Position numbers and translations under genes: made by a program. A DNA stretch of 63,999 bases, the filler included, from Gonapodya sp. JEL0774 (lineage: Eukaryota): the NCBI GenBank assembly GCA_027604505.1. It is 5 parts of 5 records of this genome, joined end to end, with 100 filler letters (N's around TTAATTAATTAA, not from the genome) between each part and the next. Parts side by side here need not be neighbours in the genome. Positions count along the whole stretch, not along the records: positions 13,782 to 27,456 come from JADIIX010000321.1; 4 more parts are not named here. One strand, 5' to 3'. Below the pieces are notes generated by a model that saw nothing but the letters and a program-made list of their open reading frames with translations, was not told the origin of the DNA and did not search any database. Numbering within the stretch: the first letter of the stretch is position 1; each line of letters begins with the position of its first letter. Positions 13,682-55,053 of this stretch are shown here, piece after piece.

Positions 13682-13781
13682 NNNNNNNNNNNNNNNNNNN
13701 NNNNNNNNNNNNNNNNNNNNNNNNNTTAATTAATTAANNNNNNNNNNNNNNNNNNNNNNNNNNNNNNNNNNNNNNNNNNNN
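13682..13781. other. Artificial scaffold spacer (N44-TTAATTAATTAA-N44)
   Basis: All-frame stop linker between N runs. The same spacer occurs four times in the window. Confidence 0.97.
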
Positions 13782-14405
13782 TGCTACGCAAACGGGGAGG
13801 GCGTGGCAAAGGACTTTGACGAGGCAGTGAAATGGTGGAGGAAGGCCGCGGACCAGGGTCACGCTCTGGCGCAGTACAACGTCGGCTACTGTCTCCGCTA
13901 CAAAAACATGGAGGCCGGTCTCCGCTACAAAACCATGGAGGCCGTGGCGAAAGACTTTGGAGAGGCAGTGAAATGGTTCAGGAAGGCCGCGGACCAGGGT
14001 GACAAGGAGGCGCAGTTCAGCCTCGGCCACTGCTACGCAAACGGGCAGGGCGTGGCGAAGGACTTTGGAGAGGCAGTGAAATGGTTCAGGAAGGCCGCGG
14101 ACCAGGGTGACAAGCAGGCGCAGTTCAGCCTCGGCCACTGCTACGCAAACGGGCAGGGCGTGGCGAAGGACTTTGGAGAGGCAGTGAAATGGTTCAGGAA
14201 GGCCGCGGACCAGGGTCACGCTCAGGCGCAGTTCAACCTCGGCTACTGCTACGACAACGGGCAGGGCGTGGCAAAGGACTTTGGAGAGGCGGTGAAGTGG
14301 TGGAGGAAGGCCGCGGACCAGGGTCACGCTCAGGCGGTTCGAGCATTGCAGGCTTTCAATAAGAGTGCGAGTGGACCACAGAAGAAGGTTTTTGGATTAT
14401 TTTAG
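13782..14405 (+). CDS. Sel1-like repeat protein, 5'-partial
   Basis: Tandem 36-aa units AQFSLGHCYANGQGVAKDFGEAVKWFRKAADQG, encoded by near-identical 108-bp DNA repeats. Confidence 0.95.
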   Translation, partial: CYANGEGVAKDFDEAVKWWRKAADQGHALAQYNVGYCLRYKNMEAGLRYKTMEAVAKDFGEAVKWFRKAADQGDKEAQFSLGHCYANGQGVAKDFGEAVKWFRKAADQGDKQAQFSLGHCYANGQGVAKDFGEAVKWFRKAADQGHAQAQFNLGYCYDNGQGVAKDFGEAVKWWRKAADQGHAQAVRALQAFNKSASGPQKKVFGLF

Positions 14406-15538
14406 GACATTACTTCAGTCAGAAAATGGTATTGTCAGTTCCGTCAAGGCATAGTGCATGTGTTTTCTCAAGTGCACAGGGAATGGCCATGTTATCACTT
14501 CTTCCAGCCCCTCTTATTGCCTTCTTTCAAATCCATTCTGTATTTTCTCTGTTTCTTCCCCCCACCCCCTTTCCCCCGTGGGGTGTTTCAAGAGGATGAG
14601 TGTAGGACAGGGCTGGAAGGTTCTAGAACACTCTTGACTTCGGCAGATTTTTTTGTATTCCTGGTCAATTGTTGAATGCCAATTTGAATAAATGTCTTGC
14701 CATAAAACTGCAACTCATCAAATTGATTTCAAATCAATCTCAGCCGTGAGCTGGTCTTGATGGAGGACCAACCATGCCGTCTCGCCTTGCAGACCAGCCT
14801 CGCTTCTTGACCGAAGACCGTCACACCACACCAAACTCCAACACCCCACAGGATGGCAGCACGCAAGCACACAGACATGATTGCTGCGGTGGAGGCCGAC
14901 AGTCTCACTCTTGTCGGAAAGGCGTTCGCGGAGGGCCAGGAAGAGGGTCACACTCCCGGTCTGAATCAAGTCTGAAACCAAAAAAGAAACCATCCTCGCC
15001 GAGTCTGCCATCACAATCGCTGTCATCAAAGCGTCGACCGATTCTAGACATCATTGTAGACACGCCTTCAAACAAGTGCACAGGCCACTTAGTGCTTGTT
15101 TGTACGGCATTGCTGTCACTATTGAGCTAGGTGACGAATGGAACTCGGTACTGGAGGGATATCCGATACACATTTTAGAACCTTCAAGGCTCCTCAAACG
15201 GGACCGGTAGAGCTTTGGAACTTTCAAAGCCGTTATGTAAGGGCAATATATATTGCGCCTCGCTAGCTTTAGAGACCATTACGTTGACTCCGTTTTTGCC
15301 GTTTTCGAACTCTCAAAACGGCAGATTTTAGAACCTTCATGGCTCAAGAAAACAATCCTGTGCAGCATGTGACTCCAATTCGGATTGATGTAGAATCAGA
15401 TCGAAAAAACTGATCCCAGAAGTACTTGTGGGTGTTGGATGACCACAGCAGACGTATCTCTTTTTAGCCAGCGTTGATCACCCATCACAGGCTATTTAGG
15501 AGTGTGCACTGGCGGTTCATGAAACTCATCCGTCGTGG

Positions 15539-16246
15539 ATGTATATTTTCTCCATGATTTTACTTTTTTATATTCGAAGAGATGGAGCAATGAATTCGAT
15601 GATGACCTCCGATGCTCTCCCTCCTTATACGGTGGTAGCTTCTGAACCGTCACTCTCGGATTTCACAGTCGCACGACTCTCCGAACACGAAAAGGTTCTG
15701 TACGGCAAGCTGAACAGTATTCGTGAGGAGTCCGAGCCGAGTGGCAGGGAGTATCCGGCGGACTTGGTAGCAATCTTCCCACTGGGTGGATATTGGTCTA
15801 AGGAGCACGCTAAAAAAGCCCTGATAGAGCGCTCGGGCCTGGTAGAAAACATAGATTTCAAGATATACAATCCAACCTCTGAGAATGTCGAGGAAGATAT
15901 GTTTACCACAAGTGAGCGGATTCTTCTAACGTGGCACGCCGCTCAAATCTTTGTGATGCAGGGTCCCACCAAGGTTGGTGAAGAAGTCCGCCGTTTCTTT
16001 GTTCACATACTCCAACTTCACCAAGACTACATCATGTTGCAGGCGGAACGTCGCACTGCCAGCGCGGTTGCCGACGTCCGTCACGAGGAGATCCTTGCCG
16101 CCCATGGTGACGAGCAGGGTGCTTATTTGGGAACCATTGGGTGGCAGAGTGTTGAGAGTCATGACAAGCTCTTCAAGTTTGGGTTCGCAAGCAAATTGAA
16201 GGAGGGAGTCCATCGCCAGTGGAGGGAAGTGTTGCGATGCTTATAA
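15539..16246 (+). pseudogene. Giant-virus-like MSV199/antirepressor-type DNA-binding domain plus truncated T5orf172/GIY-YIG-like domain
   Basis: Intronless. YPADL...GYWSKEHAKKAL...ENIDFKI...ILLT...TKVGEEVRRFF is followed by AYLGTI...LFKFGFASKL and then an early stop. Confidence 0.55.
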
Positions 16247-16635
16247 CAAGGCCAACCGGAAGAAAATACCTTCGGTGTGTAACTTGAAGTTCAAATAAGA
16301 GCCTTGCAAAGCGTTGTGTGTCCGTTGCTCACGCGCAAAGTCAAAGGTGTTGTGGAAATGTCAGCTCCGAGCACCTCTGCGCCACTCTTGAACTCTTTAC
16401 GCATTTTTTCGACGTCGTCGTCCCTGACATCCCGTGGAGCATCGTGGCGGACGACACAGTGACCACCCTCGAGGAAACCGGCTGACGAAGACCGCAGCCG
16501 CTCGTTGAACGCGGCGGGGGAGGGTGCAGAAACCTGGACTTTTTTTTCGCCGACGATGACTCTGCCTTCGCGACAGGTTCGTAGGATGGCGGTTTCGAGC
16601 TCTGCGGTTGACGGATCTCATTGATTCTCTGATTC

Positions 16636-16788
16636 GAGCTAGTCTGTTACGATATCCGGTAGAGGTCTTATGGACATTTTGGACATGACCTTTTTATTTG
16701 GCTCTAAGCTTTGAATCGCTAAGCCCGCAGCTACCACTGCGAGGCCCCTCGAAAAAATGACCAAGGGACCATAATTTATGTTTTTGGT
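16636..16788 (-). ncRNA. Predicted omegaRNA: scaffold about 16788-16656 plus flank-derived guide about 16655-16636
   Basis: Four consecutive hairpins at 16770-16743, 16742-16725, 16725-16700 and 16691-16663. Loop GGUAG (16735-16731) is complementary to CUACC (16662-16658) just before the terminal GG, which allows a pseudoknot. Confidence 0.7.
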
Positions 16789-18618
16789 TCAGTCGTCTTC
16801 TTGGAGTTCAACTTCGTCTTCTCCAGTTGAGACTCCTTGCTTCTTCAAATCTTTGACAACATCACCGAAAAACTTTTTGAGCACCAACCATGAACTCTTG
16901 TCAATTGATCCAGTCCATGTTCTGTATGAACGCAGAAAGATATTTCTTGAAGCGTTATTGTCTCGGTCAGCGATGTAACCACAGGTGCACTTGAAAGTCT
17001 TTCTACTTCCAAGAGTTTTGTGGAGGCGGCCACATTCTCCGCATGTTTTGGACGTGTAGTGTTCTGTCGGGTGAAGAACCCCAACACCTCGTTGTTCTGC
17101 TTTCTGTTTCAACTTTTGTCGGAACTCAAAATGGGCAAGGGTGTACAATTGCCTTACAGTCTTCTTCCTCAAACATCGATGTCCGCAAGATGAAATCTCT
17201 TTCACTTTCAATTCAGGCAGGAGTATGATTCTAGCGTGTTTGGTCAAGAAATTGGCCGTTTTGTTGTGAAGGTCTTCTTTCCAGCGCTGCATTTTCTTGC
17301 GAATATTGGCAATTCTCCTCCTTAATCTACGAAAAGACTGTCTATCTCGATCTCTCTGAGCCTGCCGCCGTTGCGCAATCAGCTTGTCCATGTACAAGGC
17401 CTTTCGAAACATTTTTGTCGACGCATCAGTTCCAATCTGATATGCTTCCTGTTTTCCAGCAAAATATGCGGTTTGGAATGTCCTTATTCCGGGATCCAAA
17501 CTGACAACGTCGTCGTCCATTCCTCGATCGCAATGAGGGTCAATTGGTGCAACGAATGGGGCAATCAGGAAATAATCGAACCCATCAAAATGAACCTTGA
17601 AATCATGATCCATCTTTTCAGGAAGAACGTCAGAAGCCTTCGTGAAGAGTGCCTGTCTCTTGTGAACAGAAGGGTATACTGTAAACGATCTGCTATCACA
17701 GAAATGAAAGTCACGTTTCTCGAAATTGAGAGTGAATGAATGCTTGCTCTGCGAATCAATGGGCTTCATTGTGAAATGCGTGATGTTACGTTGTTGCAAG
17801 TTGGTCATGGCCGATTTGAAATTTTTAGCAGCCTCAAGAACAGCCCCTGATCGAACAGTCTTGGGTGTTTCACACACCCAGCGATGCGCCTGACATACCT
17901 CATGTGGTATTATTTTTGCTTTGAGGGCATACTTGTGTGTAATTTTGTCTTCGTTTATGAGTTTTATCGCCTGGTTGTAACTGAATGTTGCCGCCACATT
18001 CCATTTCTTGAGGAGTGCTCTCATTTGGCTGTTCGGATGTATCTTCATTTTTGTTGCTCTTGTTATTTTTGTACCTCCTTTGAATGTTCCAACGAGAACC
18101 AGAAGCTTGGATGACAGAGAGGATATCTTCGACGAACTGTTGTTGCGCAGGCTTGTTTTCACTGTCGAGAACCACGACTCTTGCACCAAACTGTGCGAAG
18201 ATCCATTCAATGATGTCAAAACCGAATCTTGACAATCTGTCGCGCGAAGCGACCACCACTTCCTGTAATCCTCCTCTCTTCGCGAGTTCCAGAAGGGATA
18301 GTAGTCCAGGTCTTTTGAAGTTGAGTCCTGATCCAATGTCGGCGACAATTCTGTGTCTGGGGAACTTGTCAACCATGAAATCTTGTTGTCGCTGTAGATC
18401 ATCTCTCTGTTTTTGTGTAGATACTCGCACATACGCGACACTTTCCCGATAAGTTCTGGTGACCACAGATTGATTGAGTTTTTGGTGAGATGGGTCAACA
18501 AGGATGCGTCGATCACCTGTTGGCGTTCGGAAGGAGTAAACTTTTGAGGAATCACACCACCGGCGGATAGTTCGAGGAGACACTCCAACATGATGGGCTG
18601 CATCTGATGTGGAGACAT
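16789..18618 (-). CDS. tnpB: Fanzor2 (eukaryotic IS607 TnpB-family) RNA-guided RuvC endonuclease
   Basis: RuvC-I VVSLDPGIRTF. Rearranged RuvC-II, with P at the canonical E position in ILLPELKV and an alternative E in TEHYTSK. Zn finger CGEC..CTC. RuvC-III DRDNNASRNI. Intronless and uninterrupted. The start is 18618 (609 aa) or 18726. Confidence 0.93.
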   Translation of the reverse strand: MSPHQMQPIMLECLLELSAGGVIPQKFTPSERQQVIDASLLTHLTKNSINLWSPELIGKVSRMCEYLHKNREMIYSDNKISWLTSSPDTELSPTLDQDSTSKDLDYYPFWNSRREEDYRKWWSLRATDCQDSVLTSLNGSSHSLVQESWFSTVKTSLRNNSSSKISSLSSKLLVLVGTFKGGTKITRATKMKIHPNSQMRALLKKWNVAATFSYNQAIKLINEDKITHKYALKAKIIPHEVCQAHRWVCETPKTVRSGAVLEAAKNFKSAMTNLQQRNITHFTMKPIDSQSKHSFTLNFEKRDFHFCDSRSFTVYPSVHKRQALFTKASDVLPEKMDHDFKVHFDGFDYFLIAPFVAPIDPHCDRGMDDDVVSLDPGIRTFQTAYFAGKQEAYQIGTDASTKMFRKALYMDKLIAQRRQAQRDRDRQSFRRLRRRIANIRKKMQRWKEDLHNKTANFLTKHARIILLPELKVKEISSCGHRCLRKKTVRQLYTLAHFEFRQKLKQKAEQRGVGVLHPTEHYTSKTCGECGRLHKTLGSRKTFKCTCGYIADRDNNASRNIFLRSYRTWTGSIDKSSWLVLKKFFGDVVKDLKKQGVSTGEDEVELQEDD

Positions 18619-18622
18619 GCAT
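17900..18622 (-). CDS. tnpA: IS607-family TnpA serine transposase (MerR-like HTH plus resolvase domain)
   Basis: HTH AAHHVGVSPRTIRRW...RTPTGDRR, catalytic AYVRVST, DIGSGLNFKRPGL and RDRLSRFGF. Confidence 0.95.
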   Translation of the reverse strand: MHVSTSDAAHHVGVSPRTIRRWCDSSKVYSFRTPTGDRRILVDPSHQKLNQSVVTRTYRESVAYVRVSTQKQRDDLQRQQDFMVDKFPRHRIVADIGSGLNFKRPGLLSLLELAKRGGLQEVVVASRDRLSRFGFDIIEWIFAQFGARVVVLDSENKPAQQQFVEDILSVIQASGSRWNIQRRYKNNKSNKNEDTSEQPNESTPQEMECGGNIQLQPGDKTHKRRQNYTQVCPQSKNNTT

Positions 18623-18767
18623 CTGATACTTTTCTTACATCTACGCTCACAAAAAAAATTTATGTCAAATTTTTGAAGACGTGGACGTGGACTTGGACGT
18701 CGACGTCGACGTACAGTTTTGACCATTTTGACAATAAATGTCCGTGGATTTGAGAAGCAGCTGAACC

Positions 18768-20269
18768 CCCCACTCTCAAATCTCACCAGTCTGTCTTTTT
18801 TGGAACTCTGTAACAACCAGCTCACTGGAGAGATCCCCTCTCTCTCGTCTCTTACCAAGCTTCAACAAATCCACCTCTATAGCAACAACCTATCCGGGAA
18901 TGTGGACAGAGTGTTCATACCCGCGTCCGTATATTATTGCTACCTGTACCCCAATCCCGGCTTGTACAGTTGCACCGGTAACGCTTCGGTTTGCACAAGC
19001 TCCGTTCGCGTCGATGCTGCACCCTGCGCAATCGTTTCACCTTCCTCAGCAACTTCCACAACGTCGTCGAACGGCCCCAACGTCGGCGCCATAGCCGGAG
19101 GGACCGCTGCCGCTGTGGCAGCTGCGGTCATGGTCGTGATTCTTGCATGGCGAGCCCGAAGCACGCGCTACCGAAGCGCACCACAAAAGGACGCGATGCC
19201 GCCGGCGGATAAGGAGGTCATAGGGCCAAATATCAGTGCAAGTGAAGATGGTGCAGCTGAGTCAGAGTTACCGGCACCTATAGTGAGTCATACATAGGAC
19301 ACATGGCTGTAAGCCGCACCTTCAATTCCTCAATCATTTTTCGTTTGTTTTTCTTGGAGACTGCATTTCCTGCTGAGCCGCACACGCCCGATCGCCCTTC
19401 ACCGCTACCCACCTCGGCCAATGACATACCGTCTGATACTGTATTCCTCGCTGACTCAATCGAGGCGTCCACCGCATCATCACCTGCTTCATTACCACTC
19501 TCTTCTGAGTCGAATTCAATTGCAGCACTATTGTACCCATCTGCCAGTTTAGCGGATCTTCCTCAAACCCCCAAGGTGGAGACCGTGGCAATTGTGGGAG
19601 GCACACCACAGGTCGAGGCGCCAGTGCCAACTGCAATACCAGTATTGTCCATTCCCGCAATCCAGAGTAATGTGAGAGTGAGATATCGGGGGTGGAGCAC
19701 AGGCACCGGTGATCTGCATTTTCACCTCGCAAATAGTCTCAGGGACCACATGGGGCCTTTGTTGCCTTGGTCGGCCCAATTTTCGGCGCATCGCCCAGAA
19801 TCGAACTGCCTCCAGACACACCGCCATTCCAGGTAGACTACGAGGTGAGGCAACCCACATGTTATTGATTGCGTTTGACTTTTCCTGATGAACCTTGTTG
19901 GACAGTACAATGCGGTGTCCCCCGACGAGGTGTCGATCCGCAGGGGACAATTTGTCAAGCTCAAGGTCGTGTTCAGGGACGGTTGGGCCATGGGACTCAA
20001 CATTGCCACGGAGCAGTATGGACTTTTGCCTCTGTAGGTACTCCCGTTTGACGCAGCTCCTGCAGTTTCTCTCATGCGCTCCCTGTGCCAACTTAAGGGA
20101 ATGCCTTCGTATGACCCCTTATCAACCTGCATTCACGATACCAAGTGTGAGACTGGAGTCGGTCGGGGCATGGGGCAGCCACGGAATGCCATTATTGCAC
20201 CCCTCTGCTCCACCTCCATCGTCAACAGATGTCGGTACGCCAACGACCGTAGCGTACGGCGCTGCGTAG
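18768..20269 (+). pseudogene. LRR-transmembrane-SH3 receptor-like gene, 5' end cut off at the element junction
   Basis: LRRs LSNLTSLSFLELCNNQLTGEIPSLSSLTKLQQIHLYSNNLSG, TM GAIAGGTAAAVAAAVMVVILAW, and a spliced SH3 YNAVSPDEVSIRRGQFVKLKVVFRDGWAMGLNIATEQYGLLPL. Confidence 0.75.
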
Positions 20270-20464
20270 TCAATTGTAACGTTTTGTCAGGAAGGCGACT
20301 ATCAACAATGTCTTGGAAGTGATTGGCGGTGAAGTTTTCGTCAATCGCGTCGGATGTGAACTGTTAGTTAAAAGTACAACTTGTAAAAATTTTGAAGTTT
20401 CTATAAAGTATTCTGGAAGTTCCAGGCCTTCACATATCGGTTCTGTCCAACCTCATGGCAAAGG

Positions 20465-21415
20465 CTAAAAATGTTTATGGATGCGCAACATATTGTACAG
20501 TGAGAGAAAGTCTTTCTCGTACTCCTTTTTGTACTGCTGCAAGTTGCGCATTGTTCCATGGAAGCGTCTCGGGAATGGTTCATCATGCCAGTACTCCAAC
20601 GGCGCCACTGCCAACAGATTGAGCAACCTTGTAGTAGGATGAGTGAACAGTTGGTAACGAGGTTCTCCGTAGTCCAGTCCGGCAAACGAGCTTGGTACGT
20701 GGTAGAGAAGCAGTGGTACATCGACTGGTCGCGTAAAATTGAACACCATTGCCGCAATCTTCATCACCACGCCGTAGCCCAATGTGGATTCCAACGTCCG
20801 CCATACAAGCTCCTCAACATCCGCCGCTTCCCACACAGGGCTCTCGCCAGCAGCTGGCGTCTTCCAGTATATGTACACATCGGTGGAAAATGGAAAATAT
20901 ATGTGAGGCCAGTCATTTTCGGCCGCTCCAGGATGTCCTTCCTTGTGAATAGTTGCGTCATCCGGTCGGTTATGTGGGGTTCCGAGAGGTTGACCTGGTG
21001 CTGAAGTACTCGTGCGATGCATTTCCCGAGGACGTAGGAACGTTTTCCTCGGGATCCTCCTCCTTGTCGGTGCGCTGTCCCATAGGTTCCGTAGTTCTCG
21101 CCCATCAGTAAGAGTCAAGACGTGACCAGACTTCATCACGTTGAATCCATGCTGGTCGTCGGGCAGATGATGAACTACACCTGCAGTATCGACTGGAATG
21201 ATGGTCACGTCGATGGGAACACGGCCTCTGATCAAGAACGTGGCGTCGGTGAGTCTCGCAAAGCGGCGACATGTTCTTCGGAGTTCCTTGTTCCACCAGA
21301 CACGCTGATAATAGTCGAGATTCGGCATATTTCGCAGAAGAATGGCTAATACCTGCAACCACACGTCGTCCGGCAGTTCAGGGATGACAGAGTTTGGACA
21401 AGATTGTTCGCGCAC
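20465..21415 (-). CDS. F-box-like protein, apparently intronless
   Basis: N-terminal IPELPDDVWLQVLAIL...ELRRTCRRFARL in a 316-aa ORF. Confidence 0.55.
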   Translation of the reverse strand: MREQSCPNSVIPELPDDVWLQVLAILLRNMPNLDYYQRVWWNKELRRTCRRFARLTDATFLIRGRVPIDVTIIPVDTAGVVHHLPDDQHGFNVMKSGHVLTLTDGRELRNLWDSAPTRRRIPRKTFLRPREMHRTSTSAPGQPLGTPHNRPDDATIHKEGHPGAAENDWPHIYFPFSTDVYIYWKTPAAGESPVWEAADVEELVWRTLESTLGYGVVMKIAAMVFNFTRPVDVPLLLYHVPSSFAGLDYGEPRYQLFTHPTTRLLNLLAVAPLEYWHDEPFPRRFHGTMRNLQQYKKEYEKDFLSLYNMLRIHKHF

Positions 21416-22385
21416 CAGGCCACACGCTGTGGTATGTGGTGGTAATGGACGGAGGACGGGAGTAGAATGTCGTTTCCTGGGGCTGTGTCCAGAGACGGAG
21501 GTGGATAGAGGTTTCTACAAGCAACCGATTGCGGTCGTTTCAGTTACACGTAGAAAGAGATATTAAGTACGCTCTTCTCACCTTGCAACGCCGATACGGT
21601 TGAGTCCGCGTTCGCTTTTGTTCGATCTCGATGGACGGCGGACGAGAACGTTTTTTCGACTCCGGAACGGTGGTGTGCGACTGGGTCCGCATTCGCATGC
21701 GTTTTAGTTCGATGGTATGGTGGTTATCAGAAGGTGAAAGAGATTGGTTCTTCGCATTCGTGACCTCATGTGTGTTTGGCTGAATGACCGATGTCGTGTC
21801 CAAATGGCTAAGAGAGGGATGGTGACGAGAAACTGTACTCACCTTGCTTCGGCGGTCCGGCCGAGTTCGTCGACTGTGTTCAACTGCGCAGGAACCGGGC
21901 AACTGAGAGTGGGGTGCATTTGGCACGTTGTGAACGGAGACGGAAGAAGCAGGAGCGTCGACATGGACTGGGACTGATATTGACGCAGTGGGTTTTGTGG
22001 GAGATCGACCAGGTCTCTCCCTTTGGTGGGTGGGACGAGAGTATGGTTTCTCTCGAGTGCCGGGTGTGTTGTTCCGCTTTGGGAGTTTGGAACAGACAGT
22101 TGAAACGGCGGTGATGGCTCGTGTGATGATGTCCTTCCCAGCGTCGAGTGCTTTGCGGGCGCCAGCGTAGTTGATTCGAGCCATGTGTGTAGGTGTGTCT
22201 GTGTGGAGGATGCCGAAATGTTGTTCTTGGAGGGATTGCGCAAGTGAGGCTGTGTGAGGCTCCCGCGGATTAACCGCTAAAATTCCGCGGTCGAACACAG
22301 AGTAATCCTGCTCCAGCGGGTAATACAATGTCAGAGGGCAGAGGAGCAAACGCCGAGTGGGTGATCGAGATCCTGTGTTCTGTTC

Positions 22386-23863
22386 ATGACTCACAACTGC
22401 CTCCCGCCTGAAGAGCTGGCTTACCGGACGAACTTACCAAAGCTCTTCGAAAACATGCGAGAAATTCTTTTCTTGAAAGCGGACTTGCAATCGCGGAAGA
22501 TTTCTGTGCTCAAAACGCTAGTGCTGCTGCCGTACAACGAGAAGTTGTTGAGAAAAAGCTCGACGAAATAGTGAAGTCCATAATTGGAGATATCAAGAAC
22601 GGCGACATTGCTGCCGTCGGCTTGAGAATACTAGAAAGTCTGCGTCGTTACTATCCTCGACAGCATGTCGTGTGTAAGCTGTGGGTTATACCATTATCAA
22701 AACCGTTTACAGTTTCACTTCATGCATTCATCCACTATGTCATTGCAGAGCTCTGAACAGAATTCTTGTGGACGCCACGGAGGAGGGCGCAAAACATCCA
22801 CTGACCCAGGTCGGAATTTTTCTTGCGCGAGTCAGGGTTTTGAGGGAGATCCGGCGCGTTCAGTCTGAGCCACAGCCACACGAGAGAGCTGTTATTCGGT
22901 TCGGAGTGACTCTATACAGGACCCAGGGGGTGGGTTTTCCGACTGCCCAGCAGATTGGTCTTTCAGATGAAGATTTCGATTCGAAGTGCGAGGACATACA
23001 TATCATACTCCTTCAAGTCGCCATGTTGTGGGTTTACAATCTCCATCATTGATGCATTGTAGAGTATTGACGTTTTTGTCCTATTTTTCAGGACCAAACT
23101 GATGGGGAACGGTACTCTCACAGCGCAGAACGTGCACCATTCGGAGGCAAAAGCTTTGAAGCTGTGGGACACGTTGATTGATCTAGCGCATCGGTCCGGG
23201 GATCATACTGTTGTGCGCAACAACCAGGTTTCAGTGGATGGTATGCATGGGCGAGAACGGGGCGATGCAACGTGGACAACGACACTTGGGGATCGGAATG
23301 GCGAGATTGTGCATGCATCAACTGCTACTGGAGAAACCAAGTCTGGGCGGAGCATAAGGTCGGATTTCCGAAAGGTTGTGTATTTCATGGCTGAAGCACT
23401 CTGACACCTTGAGGACAATATGCCTGTGGAGGCACGGTTGTACTTGGAGACACATGGGATGCTCACTCGCGGTGCCACAGCAACGCCTTCCGTGTGTCAC
23501 TTTCTAGACGATAGGAGCGACATTGTGATGGTATCAAGACTGTGTGAGCCTGTCACAATTGAGGTCAGGCGCGACGTAGATCCTGAGGATTTGTTCGATG
23601 GCGTGGCGATGGTCAATGCGCTTGCGCGTCATATGGCTGTGTGTCATGAAGATCTTGTCACAAGGTTCTCTGTGGTTGTTGATGGGGCAGCACCATCATC
23701 AGGGGATGAGGTGGAGGGTGGTCCAGTGGCTGAAGTGGAAGCACATTCATCAAAGAGATCGCGGATTGCACTACCAAGTTCAGCTGCTCCAGCGGAAGGG
23801 CCTCAGGCTGCCAGACGGACATCGTCGAGACTCAAGAGGTATGTAAGAGATGGCCTGGTGTGA
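22386..23863 (+). pseudogene. Degenerate gene, possibly PD-(D/E)xK restriction-endonuclease-fold (Crinkler-type)
   Basis: Consecutive ORF fragments separated by in-frame stops (22570, about 23402). RGDATW...ATGETKS...SDFRKV resembles a D..ExK motif. Confidence 0.3.
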
Positions 23864-26505
23864 GAGCGGCTCTTTTGACACTGGCATGTCCTTACAGGTC
23901 CACAGAGAACATTTTCAAGCAATGAGAGATATGGGAGAGATGGCAAGTAAAATATGAGGTGATTGAACTGCCCTTATGAGTGTATATTTATATTACCTTG
24001 GTATGTATATACTTATGATATATCTTGATCAATCACGATTTCACCAAATAGCTGATCAATCACTCTATGGTCTCCATCACCATGAACTGACAGGTTAGTC
24101 AGCTAACTATCTCTCCATACAATCTCTCCAACTTGTCAATAATGTCTCACGACGCTGTGTAATAAGTGCACATGTAAGAGCCTATATATTTCTTGTGGTC
24201 AAGTCGATCCTGCTATCCGTATGAAAACTCCCCATTTCTCATACCCCTGTTCGAATGTTGTATAGAACATCATGATGTGCGCAATAATGAGATGGAAAGT
24301 GGGTCTACCAGTGTGATATAAACAACTCACGTATCGATGCAAAGAAACGGTGGATCTCAGTGTATCAGGCTGGGGATCTAATGGCCGTGCCAAGCGGAGC
24401 CAGGTGTTGTGCCTATTTTCGAATCGAGTCTGTCCTGAGTATATTGGCGTTTTACAGTCTCGCGCGTGTTCATACTCGATAGCACATGTCCACCAACCCA
24501 CTGCCATCTCTACTGTGGGTCCGTCAGATGGAATCCAATTCAAAAAAACAATAATCTCAATCAACGTCTTCATCTATAACTGCATCAGAGGCCTCTGTCG
24601 AGGTCGGTGATCCTGCCCCATACTTGATGGTTTCAGGAGACAGGAATTCACCTGGAAATGTTGGGAGAAACGGGGCTGCACCAAATCCACGCAACCGTTT
24701 GTTCGCAAGGCGCAACTGCTCGGTGTTGTGTTGATTCCTTCAAAAATGAACAGTTACGGTATACAAACATGAACACACAAGATAAAAAAAAACACTTTAC
24801 TTACATAATTGTAGCTTCAGATGCCTTCCGGATTGCACCAAAGTATAGCGAGCGCCAGTGGCGAAGGCGATTACGAAGACTGGTGGCTGGTGGCGACGCT
24901 TCACGTTCCTCCGACAACTCCTGGAGGAGGGCACCTTTCAATTCGTTGAACTCATCACGAGCGTCCTTGTACCCCTTTTGAAGCAAAGTCCAGTTTACAC
25001 AATCTCCATCTTGCAACCTCGAGATAACACGTTGTTTCTCATGGAGCTCCTTGGTCTTCTCCTGCAAGAGTACTGCTTGCCGTTCAGAAAGTTCTCGCAA
25101 GCGGACAACTTCGGGTTGAACATCCAATCGTTTCTGTAGGACACTCAAAACAGATGTCGCAAAAGCATCGACGTCTGATTGAACATTTTCTTCTGGTGGA
25201 TCATCATATGCTGTTGCAACAGTTGATGGTTGAATGCGATTGCGTTTTTCAAGGTTGATAGGTGGACCTCCGTTGCTCCTGCTGACATTGGTTCCCTTGT
25301 TCCGCTCTTGTTTACCAAGACGATCTGCAAAATGAAAAGACGGTGAGCGAAAGTATAAACCCTGCACATAGAGCGATGATGAAATCCCAATTGGGATTTC
25401 AACGCTCTCCATTCCAAGTGCTCCCATACGAGAACACCAACGGAAAAGCGCATCTGCATTTGATGGATTACGCCACAAGAACCACGTCTCTCACAATGCG
25501 AATGGGATGAACCACACACATTGATCGATCGATTTACGTTCTGCAGAACACGTCTCTCACAATGCAAAGGCACGGGGGGTTCCACGTTCCAGAGCGCAGC
25601 CATTTGCATTGATCGATCGATTTACAACTGCGGTCAACGTCGCATGCAGATGTCATCGCGCACAAGTGAGGAGCGACATGCGCCCATAGGTTTCCCCATG
25701 CAAAGCACAATGCACACACACATCCGCTCAATCACCGTGCTTAAAATACAAAGGCTGGAAACTGTTTCTCCGCCTTCCTTGCTCACCTGATTTTGTTTTT
25801 CGTGGGACATCCGCCTCGCGCCCCGGCGACAAGTCCCGATAAGGCATACTGGTCATTCTTCGTAATTGTTTCTGCAAAGCGAAGGCACATTGTAAAAACA
25901 ATTACGAAGAATGAGCAGGAGAATGCTCAAGACACACCGCGACATGTGTTCCCGCGGAACACTATCGGGAGACAACGTACGTCATTTCCATCCATTGGAG
26001 CTTTTGGCATCTCTTCAATTGTTGTGTCAGCGGCGACAGTGTTAGAAAGTGTGTTTTTCTCGATGGGTCGATGCGGGCAAGGTGCGGTTTGGCCGACATA
26101 AGGGAGTCAATGTGGGTAGCAGCATCAGCACAGGGGGCAGCAGATCAAGCAGGTCTAAAGACGATGTTTCTGCTGCGATATCATCAGCAACGGTTGAAAC
26201 ACCACGTCCGTGATGACACATTCTACCGAGTAAGTTGGTCGCGTCCGACAGAAGACCCACTCTCCTTCCAGATCCGGAAAGCGAGCGCCACTGTATTCAC
26301 CTTTGTAAAAACCTTTGAGAAGACTCCAGGCGCGATGCTGATAGAAGGGAAGTCATCGCTTGAGGGGAGATAAACTTTTTATTGCCAGCACGACCATCTG
26401 TGGCGGTGCAGTTGCGTAGCCCCTGTGCCACACCCAGGATGGTCAGGGCAAATAAGTTTGCAAGGACTACAAATATATATTGACTATTCCATTGTTCGCC
26501 CTTGC

Positions 26506-27246
26506 TTAAAATTGCCTTCCGAATTGCTTACTGATGCTGTATTGCTTGTGATGCTCAAGCGGAATTCCTATCATCCGCTGAACACGGGTCTCGAGAGTTC
26601 TATCAACGGGAAACTCGTGTTTCAGAGGGTCACAATAAACTCCCTCGGACCTGCTCATGAAAGGGATGATGACTATCCTTGGGACATGAGCCTTTTTGCG
26701 TCCATCAATCTTTGGCATGTCGTTGGAACACGTGAACATTTTCGCAGTGTTCTCGACTTCACGCATCTCTTTGAAGAGCTCACGCGTCTGAAGACGGTCA
26801 CTACCACTGAGCCGCTTTAGTGGCTCCTCGTTGATTCTTGCGCCATCCTGAACTTCCGACATATAGGCAAACCGCCTGTTCACCATCATGGTGAGCTGCG
26901 GAGTGGCCGCATTGGCGTCGCCAGACTTCCCACATATCAGAGCAGAGTTCACAGAAACCCCGTATTTCCCTTGTGTCTGGTCCATGATTTTCATGAGCAC
27001 TCGACTAACCCACCCCTCGACATCGTCAATATCCAGGACAATGATTCCAGACGCAGAGTCAGTCTGAATGGCGATAGCGGTTCTGAGAGGAAAGGTCTTG
27101 GCTGCTTCGACGTCGAGATTCTGCCATCCCTTTGGCGCCGGCGCCTGCAGCTCCTTGCTCTCGCGCTCTACATTCCAAGCGAGCGAGATAGGGAAGGCAA
27201 TCCAGCCTAGTTCCAAGTACTTTGCGAGTTGCTCCTGTTTCGTCAT
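26506..27246 (-). pseudogene. Internally deleted viral-type PrimPol plus D5/SF3 helicase
   Basis: N-terminal bifunctional primase-polymerase motifs (YLELGWIAFPI, PKGWQ, IAIQT..SGIIVLDID) join directly to the D5 helicase part (RRFAYMSEV...KRLSGSDRLQTRELF...SNDMPKID...RIVIIPF). Walker A is absent. Confidence 0.8.
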
Positions 27247-27312
27247 GATTGGTTGGAAAAACGAACAGAAAACACAAAGTTTGAGTAGGTCGTGGAATAT
27301 AGTGGAAGAATC

Positions 27313-27456
27313 GATGGATGGGATGAGGATGGGACGATAATTCTGTAAAATTTTCGAATATTCTCTCAGGATGGGATGAGAGATTCTGTAAACTTTTCGA
27401 AACTTTGTTCGGGATGGGGATGAGGATGGGATGAGAGATTCTGTAAACTTTTCGAA
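27313..27456. repeat. Three copies of GGATGGGATGAGAGATTCTGTAAACTTTTCGAA-like units
   Basis: Direct repeats upstream of the PrimPol-D5 ORF that run into the scaffold end. Confidence 0.85.
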
Positions 27457-27556
27457 NNNNNNNNNNNNNNNNNNNNNNNNNNNNNNNNNNNNNNNNNNNN
27501 TTAATTAATTAANNNNNNNNNNNNNNNNNNNNNNNNNNNNNNNNNNNNNNNNNNNN
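27457..27556. other. Artificial scaffold spacer
   Basis: N run, TTAATTAATTAA, N run. Confidence 0.97.
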
Positions 27557-41213: not shown

Positions 41214-41313
41214 NNNNNNNNNNNNNNNNNNNNNNNNNNNNNNNNNNNNNNNNNNNNTTAATTAATTAANNNNNNNNNNNNNNNNNNNNNNNNNNNNNNN
41301 NNNNNNNNNNNNN
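41214..41313. other. Artificial scaffold spacer
   Basis: N run, TTAATTAATTAA, N run. Confidence 0.97.
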
Positions 41314-54953: not shown

Positions 54954-55053
54954 NNNNNNNNNNNNNNNNNNNNNNNNNNNNNNNNNNNNNNNNNNNNTTA
55001 ATTAATTAANNNNNNNNNNNNNNNNNNNNNNNNNNNNNNNNNNNNNNNNNNNN
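54954..55053. other. Artificial scaffold spacer
   Basis: N run, TTAATTAATTAA, N run. Confidence 0.97.

What the first reader, a model, noticed from the sequence alone, without database searches (positions are those of the whole stretch)
16636..18767. Complete eukaryotic RNA-guided nuclease locus: IS607 TnpA, Fanzor2/TnpB and omegaRNA in a fungal genome
Seen: an intronless 2.1-kb unit with an uninterrupted serine transposase (YVRVS, DRLSR), an uninterrupted RuvC nuclease (D in SLDPG, E in TEHYTS, Zn finger, D in DRDNNAS) and a structured non-coding 3' end, flanked by an intron-containing host gene. Known: TnpB and Fanzor proteins are programmable DNA endonucleases guided by an RNA from the transposon right end. 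Fanzor2 derives from IS607 elements and has the rearranged RuvC-II glutamate seen here. Inference: this is a potentially active, compact (about 609 aa) RNA-guided system with all parts present. I cannot tell whether this particular locus has been described.
Basis: partly seen in the sequence, partly recalled or inferred. Interest (0 to 1): 0.95.

Follow-up and report, generated by a model that had tools for sequence, protein, structure and literature searches.

The report
Fungal Fanzor2 transposon with nested genes
This is an intact IS607-type jumping gene in a chytrid-like fungus whose Fanzor2-type nuclease gene runs, in a second reading frame, right across its transposase gene; such elements are already known in fungi, and the nuclease is only predicted to be RNA-guided here.

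Summary
On the minus strand lie an intact IS607 serine transposase gene (tnpA, 17900-18622, 240 aa) and an intact TnpB/Fanzor2-type nuclease. The nuclease has the DPG motif, the Glu shifted to six residues before the zinc finger, and the DRD motif. Its best solved relative is mimivirus Fanzor2 (9B0L). A structured non-coding tail follows.

The neighbouring multi-exon gene matches a Gonapodya (zoosporic fungus) protein, so "fungal" is supported. Fanzor2 in IS607-like elements of fungi has been in print since 2013, so the locus itself is a new, divergent member (39% identity at most to any protein found) of a known kind.

The nuclease ORF does not start after tnpA. It is one 645-aa frame (609 aa from ATG 18618) that covers all of tnpA in the +1 frame.
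- This frame is open in 45 of 52 co-directional relatives from bacteria, giant-virus-like contigs and metagenomes.
- It constrains tnpA wobble positions.
- It survives in relatives whose tnpA has decayed.
- In the model it superposes on the Fanzor2-specific N-terminal domain.

I did not find this layout in the papers I could search. Guide RNA, element ends, mobility and expression remain untested.

The parts
16789..18726 (-). Long Fanzor2-type ORF, 645 aa from ATG 18726 (609 aa from ATG 18618). Layout: a predicted disordered N-terminus, an N-terminal domain (about residues 141-220), then the TnpB core.
   Evidence: ORF. ATG positions and contexts. Model. Best structural match is 9b0l_P: Z 22.9, model 141-606 against chain 53-518.
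17900..18622 (-). tnpA: IS607-family serine transposase, 240 aa, MerR-like HTH plus resolvase catalytic domain, Ser68. It is nested in the long ORF, one base out of frame.
   Evidence: Pfam Resolvase E 9.3e-20. NCBIfam transpos_IS607 139.3 bits, cut-off 110. PDB relatives are the ISC1904/ISC1926/IS1535 TnpA catalytic domains.
16789..18048 (-). TnpB core (WED, REC, RuvC, zinc finger), 419 aa from Met227. Catalytic Asp411, Glu555, Asp589. Pro504 sits at the canonical Glu position. Zinc finger Cys562/565/580/582.
   Evidence: phmmer against 9b0l_P E 3.5e-27. Invariant columns. NCBIfam guided_TnpB 97.9 bits, cut-off 100. pLDDT 75-94.
18067..18306 (-). The stretch that codes for the N-terminal domain of the nuclease (residues 141-220; motifs YPFWN, WWSL, SWFST). 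In the other frame it codes for TnpA residues about 106-186.
   Evidence: Motifs conserved in relatives. hhalign to non-overlapping N-extensions: 97.4%, E 1.2e-11. Partly ordered in the model, pLDDT 52-67. Within the range aligned to the ApmFz2 NTD.
16640..16830 (-). The 3' end of the ORF plus the non-coding tail: candidate omega-RNA scaffold (predicted only). Three hairpins.
   Evidence: Fold z -2.5. No Rfam family. No similar sequence in related loci.
18683..18715 (-). Left-end hexamer repeats, GTCGAC x2 then GTCCA(A/C) x3: candidate TnpA binding motifs. They also encode the Arg-rich stretch RRRRRPSPRPR of the 645-aa form.
   Evidence: Positions. Palindromes I10/I11. Function inferred from passages of PMC6188088.
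16671..16690 (-). Right-end repeats, ATGTCCA x2 nine bases apart, followed by the last GG (16657-16656) before the G+C-rich flank: candidate right end.
   Evidence: and the sequence. The GG rule comes from passages of PMC6188088 and PMC13565253. The end itself was not verified.
18900..23401 (+). Context, not part of the element: a multi-exon host gene lying head to head with the element. An unannotated LRR-like stretch lies at 18740-18890.
   Evidence: P0293 maps in 7 pieces at 69-100% identity. Named row. LRR_4.

Best explanation
This is an intact IS607-type transposon in a zoosporic fungus in which the serine transposase gene lies entirely inside, and one base out of frame with, a long Fanzor2-type nuclease ORF that is predicted to yield an RNA-guided DNA endonuclease.

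Shown:
- Both frames are open and carry all catalytic residues.
- The nuclease has the Fanzor signature (DPG, and Glu six residues before the zinc finger).
- Its closest solved relative is mimivirus Fanzor2.
- In relatives the overlapping frame is kept open, constrains tnpA wobble positions, and outlives tnpA.

Inferred:
- One transcript likely gives two proteins from start codons that lie four bases apart (18622 for TnpA, 18618 for the nuclease) or from the upstream ATG 18726. In a eukaryote this would work by leaky scanning.
- TnpA would excise and insert the element at GG dinucleotides.
- The nuclease would bind an RNA made from its own 3' end and the right end of the element. It would cut the emptied site next to a G-rich motif, so that repair copies the element back.
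- About 80 residues encoded over the transposase's catalytic domain are predicted to form the N-terminal domain that in mimivirus Fanzor2 props up the RuvC fold and clasps the DNA.
For: Identity of the two proteins:
- tnpA passes NCBIfam's IS607 equivalog.
- The nuclease core matches 9b0l_P by sequence (E 3.5e-27) and by fold (Foldseek E 1.1e-22; VIA Z 22.9, rmsd 5.0, 416 aligned).
- Asp411-Pro-Gly, Glu555 and Asp589 are invariant, and Pro504 replaces the canonical Glu. These are the features given as the Fanzor/pro-Fanzor signature in section 21 of 10.1101/2023.08.09.552727.

Nesting:
- The +1 frame over tnpA has 0 stops in the window, against a mean of 5.2 in 300 synonymous shuffles, none of which reached 0.
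- Among 242 sources, 57 have a co-directional tnpA. Of the 52 with at least 100 tnpA codons, 45 have at most 2 stops in that frame; the third frame has a median of 6-9 stops per 100 codons.
- 0 of 6 divergent loci are open. Non-nested co-directional loci of similar G+C have 5-11 stops per 100 codons.
- The first ATG of the long frame lies within 32 nt upstream to 22 nt downstream of the tnpA ATG in 14 of 23 loci with both starts.
- 8 of 26 aligned relatives have no Met within 100 residues upstream of the core.
- tnpA third positions diverge less than tnpB third positions outside the overlap in 11 of 13 pairs; in 5 of 5 pairs tested, p was 6e-3 to 5e-7.

The extension has a life of its own:
- Seven loci without an overlapping tnpA keep the PFWN..WLP motif.
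- hhalign of nested against free extensions gives 97.4%, E 1.2e-11.
- In these loci the tnpA-equivalent frame holds 2-69 stops, yet still shows TnpA remnants in L167 (E 1.3e-19) and L035 (E 5e-10).
- Only 9b0l aligns from model residue 141 (its residue 53, the start of its NTD). Nearly all other TnpB/Cas12 chains start at about 216-222, and a few start at 171-203.

Host.
Against: - Amino-acid identity in the overlapping frame is only slightly above control: 22.2% against 18.3% shuffled, while the unused frame gives 18.6% against 16.1%.
- Residues 1-143 of the model are below pLDDT 50, and the presumed domain reaches only 52-67.
- Profiles of the extension do not hit 9b0l by sequence. The aligned range gives only the first and last residue.
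- This copy does have a Met at the core start (Met227), so a 419-aa product is possible.
- 7 of 52 co-directional relatives are not nested.
- Two pairs (L018-L030 and L007-L184) show no wobble constraint.
- Tree support for the window's neighbours is weak: SH-aLRT 89-92, none at 95 or above.
- For the RNA and for mobility there is no direct evidence: no Rfam match, no conserved sequence, no second copy, no verified ends, no expression data.
Confidence: 0.7

Rival explanations
1. There are two ordinary, separately translated genes: tnpA, and a 419-aa TnpB that starts at ATG 18048. On this view the open frame upstream is an untranslated by-product of tnpA's sequence.
For: - Met227 sits exactly at the start of the TnpB core, and Pfam/NCBIfam matches begin at 222-226.
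- The first 143 residues of the long form are predicted disordered.
- Alt-frame identity is only modestly above the control frame.
Against: - The frame is open in 45 of 52 relatives but not in non-nested ones of similar G+C.
- 8 of 26 relatives have no Met within 100 residues of the core.
- tnpA wobble positions are constrained.
- The extension and its motif are kept where tnpA has decayed.
- The model superposes on the Fanzor2 NTD.
Confidence: 0.12
2. A programmed +1 ribosomal frameshift, or transcriptional slippage, fuses an N-terminal part of TnpA to TnpB, as in IS1/IS3-type OrfAB fusions.
For: The frame relation tnpB = tnpA + 1 holds in 22 of 25 metagenome, 6 of 6 genome and 18 of 20 viral-collection loci.
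Against: - The open frame reaches back to the tnpA start, not to an internal site.
- A start codon of the long frame lies next to the tnpA start.
- Relatives without tnpA keep the extension with an ATG of its own.
- I did not look for a slippery site.
Confidence: 0.05
3. The copy is intact by sequence but no longer a working transposon. It would be a recent, single, immobile arrival (perhaps from giant-virus DNA) or a domesticated gene, and no guide RNA is made.
For: - There is a single copy in the window.
- G+C is 0.44 against 0.50-0.53.
- Giant-virus-like neighbours lie on the same contig piece.
- The ends are not verified, and the RNA has no homologue.
Against: - Two overlapping frames totalling 885 codons are without a stop, and every catalytic residue is kept.
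- End repeats sit at both sides.
- A stable 3' fold is present.
- None of this shows activity.
Confidence: 0.13

Closest known systems
ApmFz2 / ApmFNuc (Acanthamoeba polyphaga mimivirus L79, PDB 9B0L), Fanzor2 in an IS607-like element
   Same: - It is the best sequence and fold match.
- DPG motif, Glu shifted to six residues before the zinc finger, and the DRD motif.
- An N-terminal extension ahead of the WED domain that aligns in the model from residue 141 to its residue 53.
- An IS607 TnpA partner.
   Different: - About 24% identity over the structural alignment.
- The N-terminal domains show no sequence match.
- Here that domain is encoded over tnpA in a second frame, whereas giant-virus-like relatives with tnpA on the other strand have no open +1 frame.
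- RNA-guided cutting is shown for ApmFz2 (passages of PMC10530073 and PMC11832414) and not for this protein.
Pro-Fanzor IS607 TnpBs, mostly of Cyanobacteria (10.1101/2023.08.09.552727)
   Same: - The same active-site signature and the same IS607 TnpA.
- The same nested layout in Oscillatoria, Lyngbya, Chloroflexota and Pseudomonadota loci and in Microcoleus phage My-WqHQDG, where GenBank annotates the 561-aa long ORF and not the nested tnpA.
   Different: - The hosts are bacterial or phage.
- 26-31% identity.
- They fall in another subclade of the tree.
- The window's copy has an extra upstream ATG (18726), followed by an Arg-rich stretch.
Classical IS607 family (IS607 of Helicobacter pylori, IS1535, ISC1926)
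   Same: - A serine transposase with an N-terminal MerR-like HTH.
- tnpB downstream on the same strand.
- No terminal inverted repeats pairing the two ends.
- Subterminal repeats and GG candidates at the ends.
   Different: - The passages I read describe two ORFs that 'often overlap' (PMC6188088; PMC3673617), not a tnpA wholly inside tnpB.
- Canonical TnpBs keep the Glu about 50 residues before the zinc finger.
- RAGATH-18, the RNA named for IS607 TnpB in PMC13565253, is not found here.
Fungal Fanzors already in print: Fanzor2 of Saccharomycetes (Ashbya, Eremothecium, S. cerevisiae EC1118, Torulaspora) and SpuFz1 of the chytrid Spizellomyces
   Same: The host is a fungus and the protein is a TnpB-derived nuclease (table in PMC3627910; PMC10432273).
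   Different: - I did not compare sequences with the yeast copies.
- SpuFz1 is Fanzor1, sits in an element with inverted repeats, and is a far weaker structural match (Foldseek E 1.3e-5).

Membership tests
Fanzor2 (eukaryotic/viral TnpB of IS607-like elements) | TnpB-type split RuvC with an Asp-Glu-Asp triad and a zinc finger between RuvC-II and RuvC-III | tested here: met
   Asp411, Glu555 and Asp589 are invariant in 27 sequences. Cys562/565/580/582 are in the sequence. Fold match to TnpB/Fanzor2/Cas12f chains at Z 15-23.
Fanzor2 (eukaryotic/viral TnpB of IS607-like elements) | DPG motif in RuvC-I and the RuvC-II Glu shifted to six residues before the zinc finger (signature given in 10.1101/2023.08.09.552727, section 21) | tested here: met
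   SLDPG is present. Glu555 is followed by HYTSKT and then Cys562. Pro504 sits at the canonical Glu position and is invariant.
Fanzor2 (eukaryotic/viral TnpB of IS607-like elements) | Encoded in a eukaryotic or eukaryotic-virus genome | tested here: met
   On the same contig piece, 174 bases from ATG 18726, starts a gene of six or more exons that matches a protein listed for a Gonapodya species. Another piece of the window carries a METTL3 exon nearest to chytrids. A chimeric contig was not excluded.
Fanzor2 (eukaryotic/viral TnpB of IS607-like elements) | Placement inside the Fanzor2 clade in a phylogeny with named references | tested here: inconclusive
   The tree of 69 rows holds no named Fanzor2 except a dinoflagellate 'A625R' protein. 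The window groups with unnamed metagenome proteins at SH-aLRT 89-92. The best PDB relative is ApmFz2.
Fanzor2 (eukaryotic/viral TnpB of IS607-like elements) | Omega RNA from the 3' end of the gene and the right end, and guide- and TAM-dependent DNA cleavage | not testable with these tools
   Only a stable fold (z -2.5). No Rfam match, no homologous sequence, and no RNA run listed.
IS607 family of insertion sequences | Serine-recombinase TnpA with an N-terminal MerR-like HTH | tested here: met
   NCBIfam transpos_IS607 covers residues 7-186 over profile 2-186 of 187, 139.3 bits. Resolvase E 9.3e-20; MerR 20.9 bits, below its cut-off. Ser68 lies in YVRVS.
IS607 family of insertion sequences | No terminal inverted repeats and no target-site duplication; GG at the termini and at the target | tested here: inconclusive
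   No inverted pair joins the two presumed ends; one 15-nt pair (16409-16423 with 18695-18709) lies in the G+C-rich flank and is a low-complexity repeat. GG candidates lie at 18770-18765, 18743-18742 and 18724-18723 on the left, and at 16657-16656 on the right. The ends could not be fixed without a second copy or an empty site.
IS607 family of insertion sequences | Multiple subterminal repeat motifs at the ends | tested here: inconclusive
   GTCGAC x2 plus GTCCA x3 at 18710-18686, and ATGTCCA x2 at 16686/16677, against about one GTCCA per kb per strand. This was seen after the fact, and binding was not tested.

The most novel reading that the evidence does not exclude
The N-terminal domain that sets Fanzor2 apart from TnpB was born by overprinting, inside the transposase gene of a bacterial IS607. 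The resulting design is one transcript with two start codions a few bases apart giving two proteins. That design is what let this one IS607 lineage work in eukaryotes and their giant viruses, where a second cistron is not translated. The fungal copy here, with both frames intact and an added upstream ATG followed by an Arg-rich, NLS-like stretch, would be a living intermediate.
Probability: 0.35. Interest if true: 0.75.

Novelty: new member of a known kind. Interest (0 to 1): 0.5.

Why it matters
As a locus it adds a divergent, apparently intact Fanzor2/IS607 element from a little-studied fungal lineage to a family that is being mined for compact genome editors. That is useful but expected.

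The layout matters more.
- If the nuclease really is made as a 609- or 645-aa protein whose first third is read from the transposase gene, then gene callers that allow one gene per stretch will report either a truncated nuclease or no transposase. The Microcoleus phage record shows the second case.
- Constructs that start at the 'core' Met would lack the domain that in mimivirus Fanzor2 contacts the RuvC fold, the RNA and the DNA.
- It would give a concrete origin for that domain.
- It would give a testable reason why only this IS607 lineage colonised eukaryotes.

Tried and rejected
**Data that were not available**
- Whole-genome search for further copies and empty sites: no genome is held for this window.
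- Sequencing runs: none was listed, and no RNA holder was listed.
- Profile search of the N-extension against 1.84 billion representatives: the queue was full at four tries, so it never ran. How widespread the extension is remains uncounted.

**The RNA**
- Rfam at E up to 1 over 14000-22000 gave two weak matches outside the element and nothing in it.
- blastn and nhmmer of the 3' tail against all fetched loci found only the window itself. No alignment for covariation could be made, and I built no covariance model.

**Copies, repeats and ends**
- blastn and tblastn of the element and of the LRR stretch against the window found no paralogue and no second copy.
- I considered a 15-nt inverted repeat (16409-16423 with 18695-18709) as a possible terminal repeat. 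I rejected it because the inner 230 bases are G+C-rich like the flank and the repeat is a CGA/CGT run.
- I tried to continue the LRR frame across a reconstructed empty site. The frames upstream of 16640 show nothing LRR-like, so I cannot say whether the element split a gene.

**Other searches**
- The single-protein scan of viral contigs gave one locus; the alignment scan replaced it.
- Profiles of the N-extension against PDB sequences gave only unrelated hits at E 0.14-2.
- The plasmid collection gave three distant cyanobacterial TnpBs covering 30% of the query.
- The sigma-70 promoter and terminator scan is not meaningful for a fungus and found no more than shuffles.

**Literature**
- Searches were. 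I read passages or sections only.
- None of the passages describes tnpA nested in the tnpB ORF.
- I saw no figures or supplements and read no paper in full, so it may be in print.
Full report
**What is there**

On the minus strand the window holds two overlapping open frames. One runs 17900-18622 (240 aa). The other runs 16789-18726 (645 aa).

The short frame is an IS607-family serine transposase:
- Pfam Resolvase, E 9.3e-20; a MerR-type HTH scores below its cut-off.
- NCBIfam's IS607 transposase equivalog scores 139.3 bits against a cut-off of 110, and covers the profile end to end.
- The nearest solved chains are the catalytic domains of ISC1904, ISC1926 and IS1535 TnpA.
- The catalytic Ser68 lies in YVRVS.

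The last 419 residues of the long frame are a TnpB core:
- Pfam Cas12f1-like_TNB, E 8e-18.
- NCBIfam guided_TnpB, 97.9 bits, just under its cut-off of 100.
- The best solved relative is mimivirus L79, the Fanzor2 ApmFz2 (9b0l_P). By sequence E is 3.5e-27 over residues 2-378. By fold, Foldseek gives E 1.1e-22 and VIA gives Z 22.9, rmsd 5.0, 416 residues aligned.

Asp411-Pro-Gly, Glu555 and Asp589 are invariant in alignments of 14 and 27 sequences. Pro504 occupies the position of the canonical RuvC-II Glu. Glu555 lies six residues before Cys562 of the zinc finger. This is the signature that section 21 of 10.1101/2023.08.09.552727 gives for Fanzors and their bacterial 'pro-Fanzor' kin.

**The host**

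The window is not one molecule. Five pieces are joined by linkers of 44 N, TTAATTAATTAA and 44 N. The element lies inside the piece 13782-27456.

On that piece a plus-strand gene model of six or more exons starts at 18900, 174 bases from ATG 18726. It runs to 23401. It matches P0293, a protein that NCBI lists for a Gonapodya species. Gonapodya is a zoosporic fungus of the Monoblepharidomycetes.

A METTL3 exon on another piece is closest to chytrid proteins, 81% to Fimicolochytrium. The pieces resemble each other in tetranucleotide use (r 0.72-0.88). The element stands apart at 0.44 G+C against 0.50-0.53. 'Fungal genome' and 'intron-containing neighbour' are supported.

An LRR-like stretch (LRR_4, 27.8 bits) lies between the element and the annotated start. 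I could not tell whether the element split an older, longer gene.

**How new the locus is**

Among 5.8 billion clustered proteins, no protein found is more than 39% identical to the core. The nearest ones are unnamed metagenome or read-archive proteins.

The kind, however, is in print:
- Fanzor2 occurs only in IS607-like elements and is listed for several yeasts (passages and table of PMC3627910).
- 'Fz2 is found broadly in fungi' (passage of PMC10432273).
- IS607-like sequences in eukaryotes were surveyed in PMC3673617.

So the locus is a new member of a known kind.

**The gene layout**

The nuclease frame does not begin after tnpA. It is open across all of tnpA, one base out of frame. Its N-terminal part carries motifs (YPFWN, KLWLP-like, SWFST) that recur in the N-termini of database relatives.

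I fetched 241 related loci: 80 from metagenomes, 80 from prokaryote genomes and 81 from the viral collection. Counts, with the window included (242 sources):
- 179 sources show no tnpA, 57 have a co-directional tnpA and 6 a divergent one.
- Of the 52 co-directional ones with at least 100 tnpA codons, 45 have at most two stops in the +1 frame. By collection: metagenomes 25 of 25, genomes 4 of 6, viral 15 of 20, window 1 of 1.
- The third frame carries a median of 6-9 stops per 100 codons.
- The seven exceptions (L089, L147, L178, L182, L203, L206, L216) have 3-22 stops.
- All six divergent loci have 17-19 stops per 100 codons, but they are very A+T-rich. The fairer controls are L147, L203 and L206, with G+C 0.38-0.49 and 5-11 stops per 100 codons.
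- Shuffling synonymous codons within tnpA keeps the already skewed codon usage. It still gives 1.0-7.6 stops on average where 0-2 are seen. In the window none of 300 shuffles reached zero.

The layout occurs in Oscillatoria, Lyngbya, Chloroflexota and Pseudomonadota genomes and in giant-virus bins. It also occurs in Microcoleus phage My-WqHQDG, where GenBank annotates the 561-aa long ORF as hypothetical and leaves the nested tnpA unannotated.

**Is the overlapping frame translated?**

Four lines of evidence say yes.
1. **Start codons.** The first ATG of the long frame lies within 32 nt upstream to 22 nt downstream of the tnpA ATG in 14 of 23 loci where both starts could be placed. Three loci and the window have ATGnATG. 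In 8 of 26 aligned relatives there is no Met within 100 residues upstream of the core (GTG or TTG starts in bacteria were not excluded).
2. **Wobble constraint.** In close pairs, tnpA third positions (second positions of the long frame) differ less than tnpB third positions outside the overlap. Of 13 pairs, 11 are lower, one is equal and one is higher. In five pairs tested p was 6e-3 to 5e-7. The pairs are not independent.
3. **Survival without tnpA.** Seven loci without an overlapping tnpA still carry the extension with the PFWN..WLP motif. A profile of 15 nested extensions matches a profile of these 7 at 97.4%, E 1.2e-11, over 65 columns. In these loci the tnpA-equivalent frame has 2-69 stops. 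It still shows TnpA remnants in L167 (E 1.3e-19) and L035 (E 5e-10), faint ones in L168 and L176, and none in L043, L034 and L016. So tnpA decays while the extension is kept.
4. **Structure.** In an AlphaFold2 model of the 645-aa form (27 sequences; mean pLDDT 65, core 75-94) residues 1-143 are below 50. A helix at 148-156 and strands at 165-170 and 187-193, which are exactly the conserved motifs, reach 52-67. Only 9b0l_P aligns from model residue 141, to its residue 53. Nearly all other TnpB and Cas12 chains start at about 216-222, and a few start at 171-203. According to passages of PMC11832414, ApmFz2 residues 53-130 form an N-terminal domain seen in no other TnpB structure. It completes the RuvC fold and clasps the DNA.

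Against this reading:
- Amino-acid identity in the overlapping frame (22.2%) exceeds shuffles (18.3%) only a little more than the unused frame does (18.6% against 16.1%).
- The extension profiles do not find 9b0l by sequence.
- The aligned range gives end points only.
- Confidence of the model in this part is modest.
- This copy has a Met at the core start.

I had reached the layout before seeing it and tested it independently. It is not independent evidence.

**Likely mechanism**

By analogy with IS607 and Fanzor2, and not shown here:
- TnpA would move the element between GG dinucleotides.
- The nuclease would bind an RNA from its own 3' end and cut the emptied site next to a G-rich motif, so that repair restores the element. 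This rests on passages of PMC6188088, PMC13565253 and 10.1101/2023.08.09.552727.

In the window the 3' tail folds into three hairpins (z -2.5). GTCCA-type repeats cluster at both sides: 18710-18686, and 16686 and 16677. The last GG before the G+C-rich flank is at 16657-16656. On the left three GGs are candidates.

For expression in a fungus, one transcript with leaky scanning is the simplest reading. ATG 18726 is in a strong context (A at -3, G at +4) and opens the long frame with MVKTVRRRRRPSPRPR. ATG 18640 is followed at once by TAA. ATG 18622 (tnpA) and ATG 18618 (long frame) are both in weak contexts. Whether 18726 lies inside the element is open.

**What remains untested**

- The RNA: no Rfam match and no homologue.
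- The ends.
- Mobility: no second copy in the window and no genome held.
- Expression: no run listed.
- Placement among named Fanzor2 proteins: the tree has weak support.

**Verdict**

The locus is an intact, divergent Fanzor2/IS607 element in a zoosporic fungus, a known kind. Its interest lies in the nested two-frame design, which it shares with bacterial, phage and giant-virus relatives. I did not find that design described in the texts I could search.

Noticed in passing
window 13682-13781, 27457-27556, 41214-41313, 54954-55053: The window is a chain of separate contigs joined by linkers of 44 N, TTAATTAATTAA and 44 N. The pieces shrink slightly in length from 13,675 to 13,640 bases. Genes on different pieces are therefore not shown to be neighbours.
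   Followed up: yes
window 15542-16246 (+): The ORF next to the presumed right end has no Pfam hit. In the protein atlas its nearest clusters are MSV199/T5orf172/Bro-N proteins of giant viruses (score 0.92, 170 shared features). This is a lead that the element may have arrived with giant-virus DNA.
   Followed up: partly
window 26509-27456 (-): An ORF at the end of the same contig piece gives sub-threshold matches to DUF5906 (E 4e-5, 24.8 bits, cut-off 27.6) and Prim-Pol (E 0.18). This is the make-up of D5-type primase-helicases of large DNA viruses and mobile elements.
   Followed up: partly
L242 1336-3021 (Microcoleus phage My-WqHQDG, OR578706.1): GenBank annotates the 561-aa long ORF as 'hypothetical protein'. 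It does not annotate the IS607 transposase nested inside it (ORF 1377-1916 of the locus). This is an example of how nested pairs get lost in annotation.
   Followed up: yes
window 18683-18715 (-): The same 33 bases are a run of hexamer repeats (candidate transposase binding sites). In the long frame they also encode the Arg-rich stretch RRRRRPSPRPR, which resembles a nuclear localisation signal.
   Followed up: no
window 14000-14323 (+): Three tandem 108-base units (99% and 87% identical to the first) encode Sel1 repeats (Pfam Sel1 E 9.8e-46) at the start of the contig piece.
   Followed up: no
window 15251-15390 (-): A weak Rfam match to RT-11 RNA: 30.3 bits against a gathering score of 143.5, E 0.002. 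Most likely chance.
   Followed up: no
P0122 (database protein): The highest-scoring hit of the METTL3 exon is a protein filed under a firefly assembly. It consists of two tandem copies of the methyltransferase domain, on a 39-kb contig. It may be a misassembled or foreign contig in that assembly.
   Followed up: no
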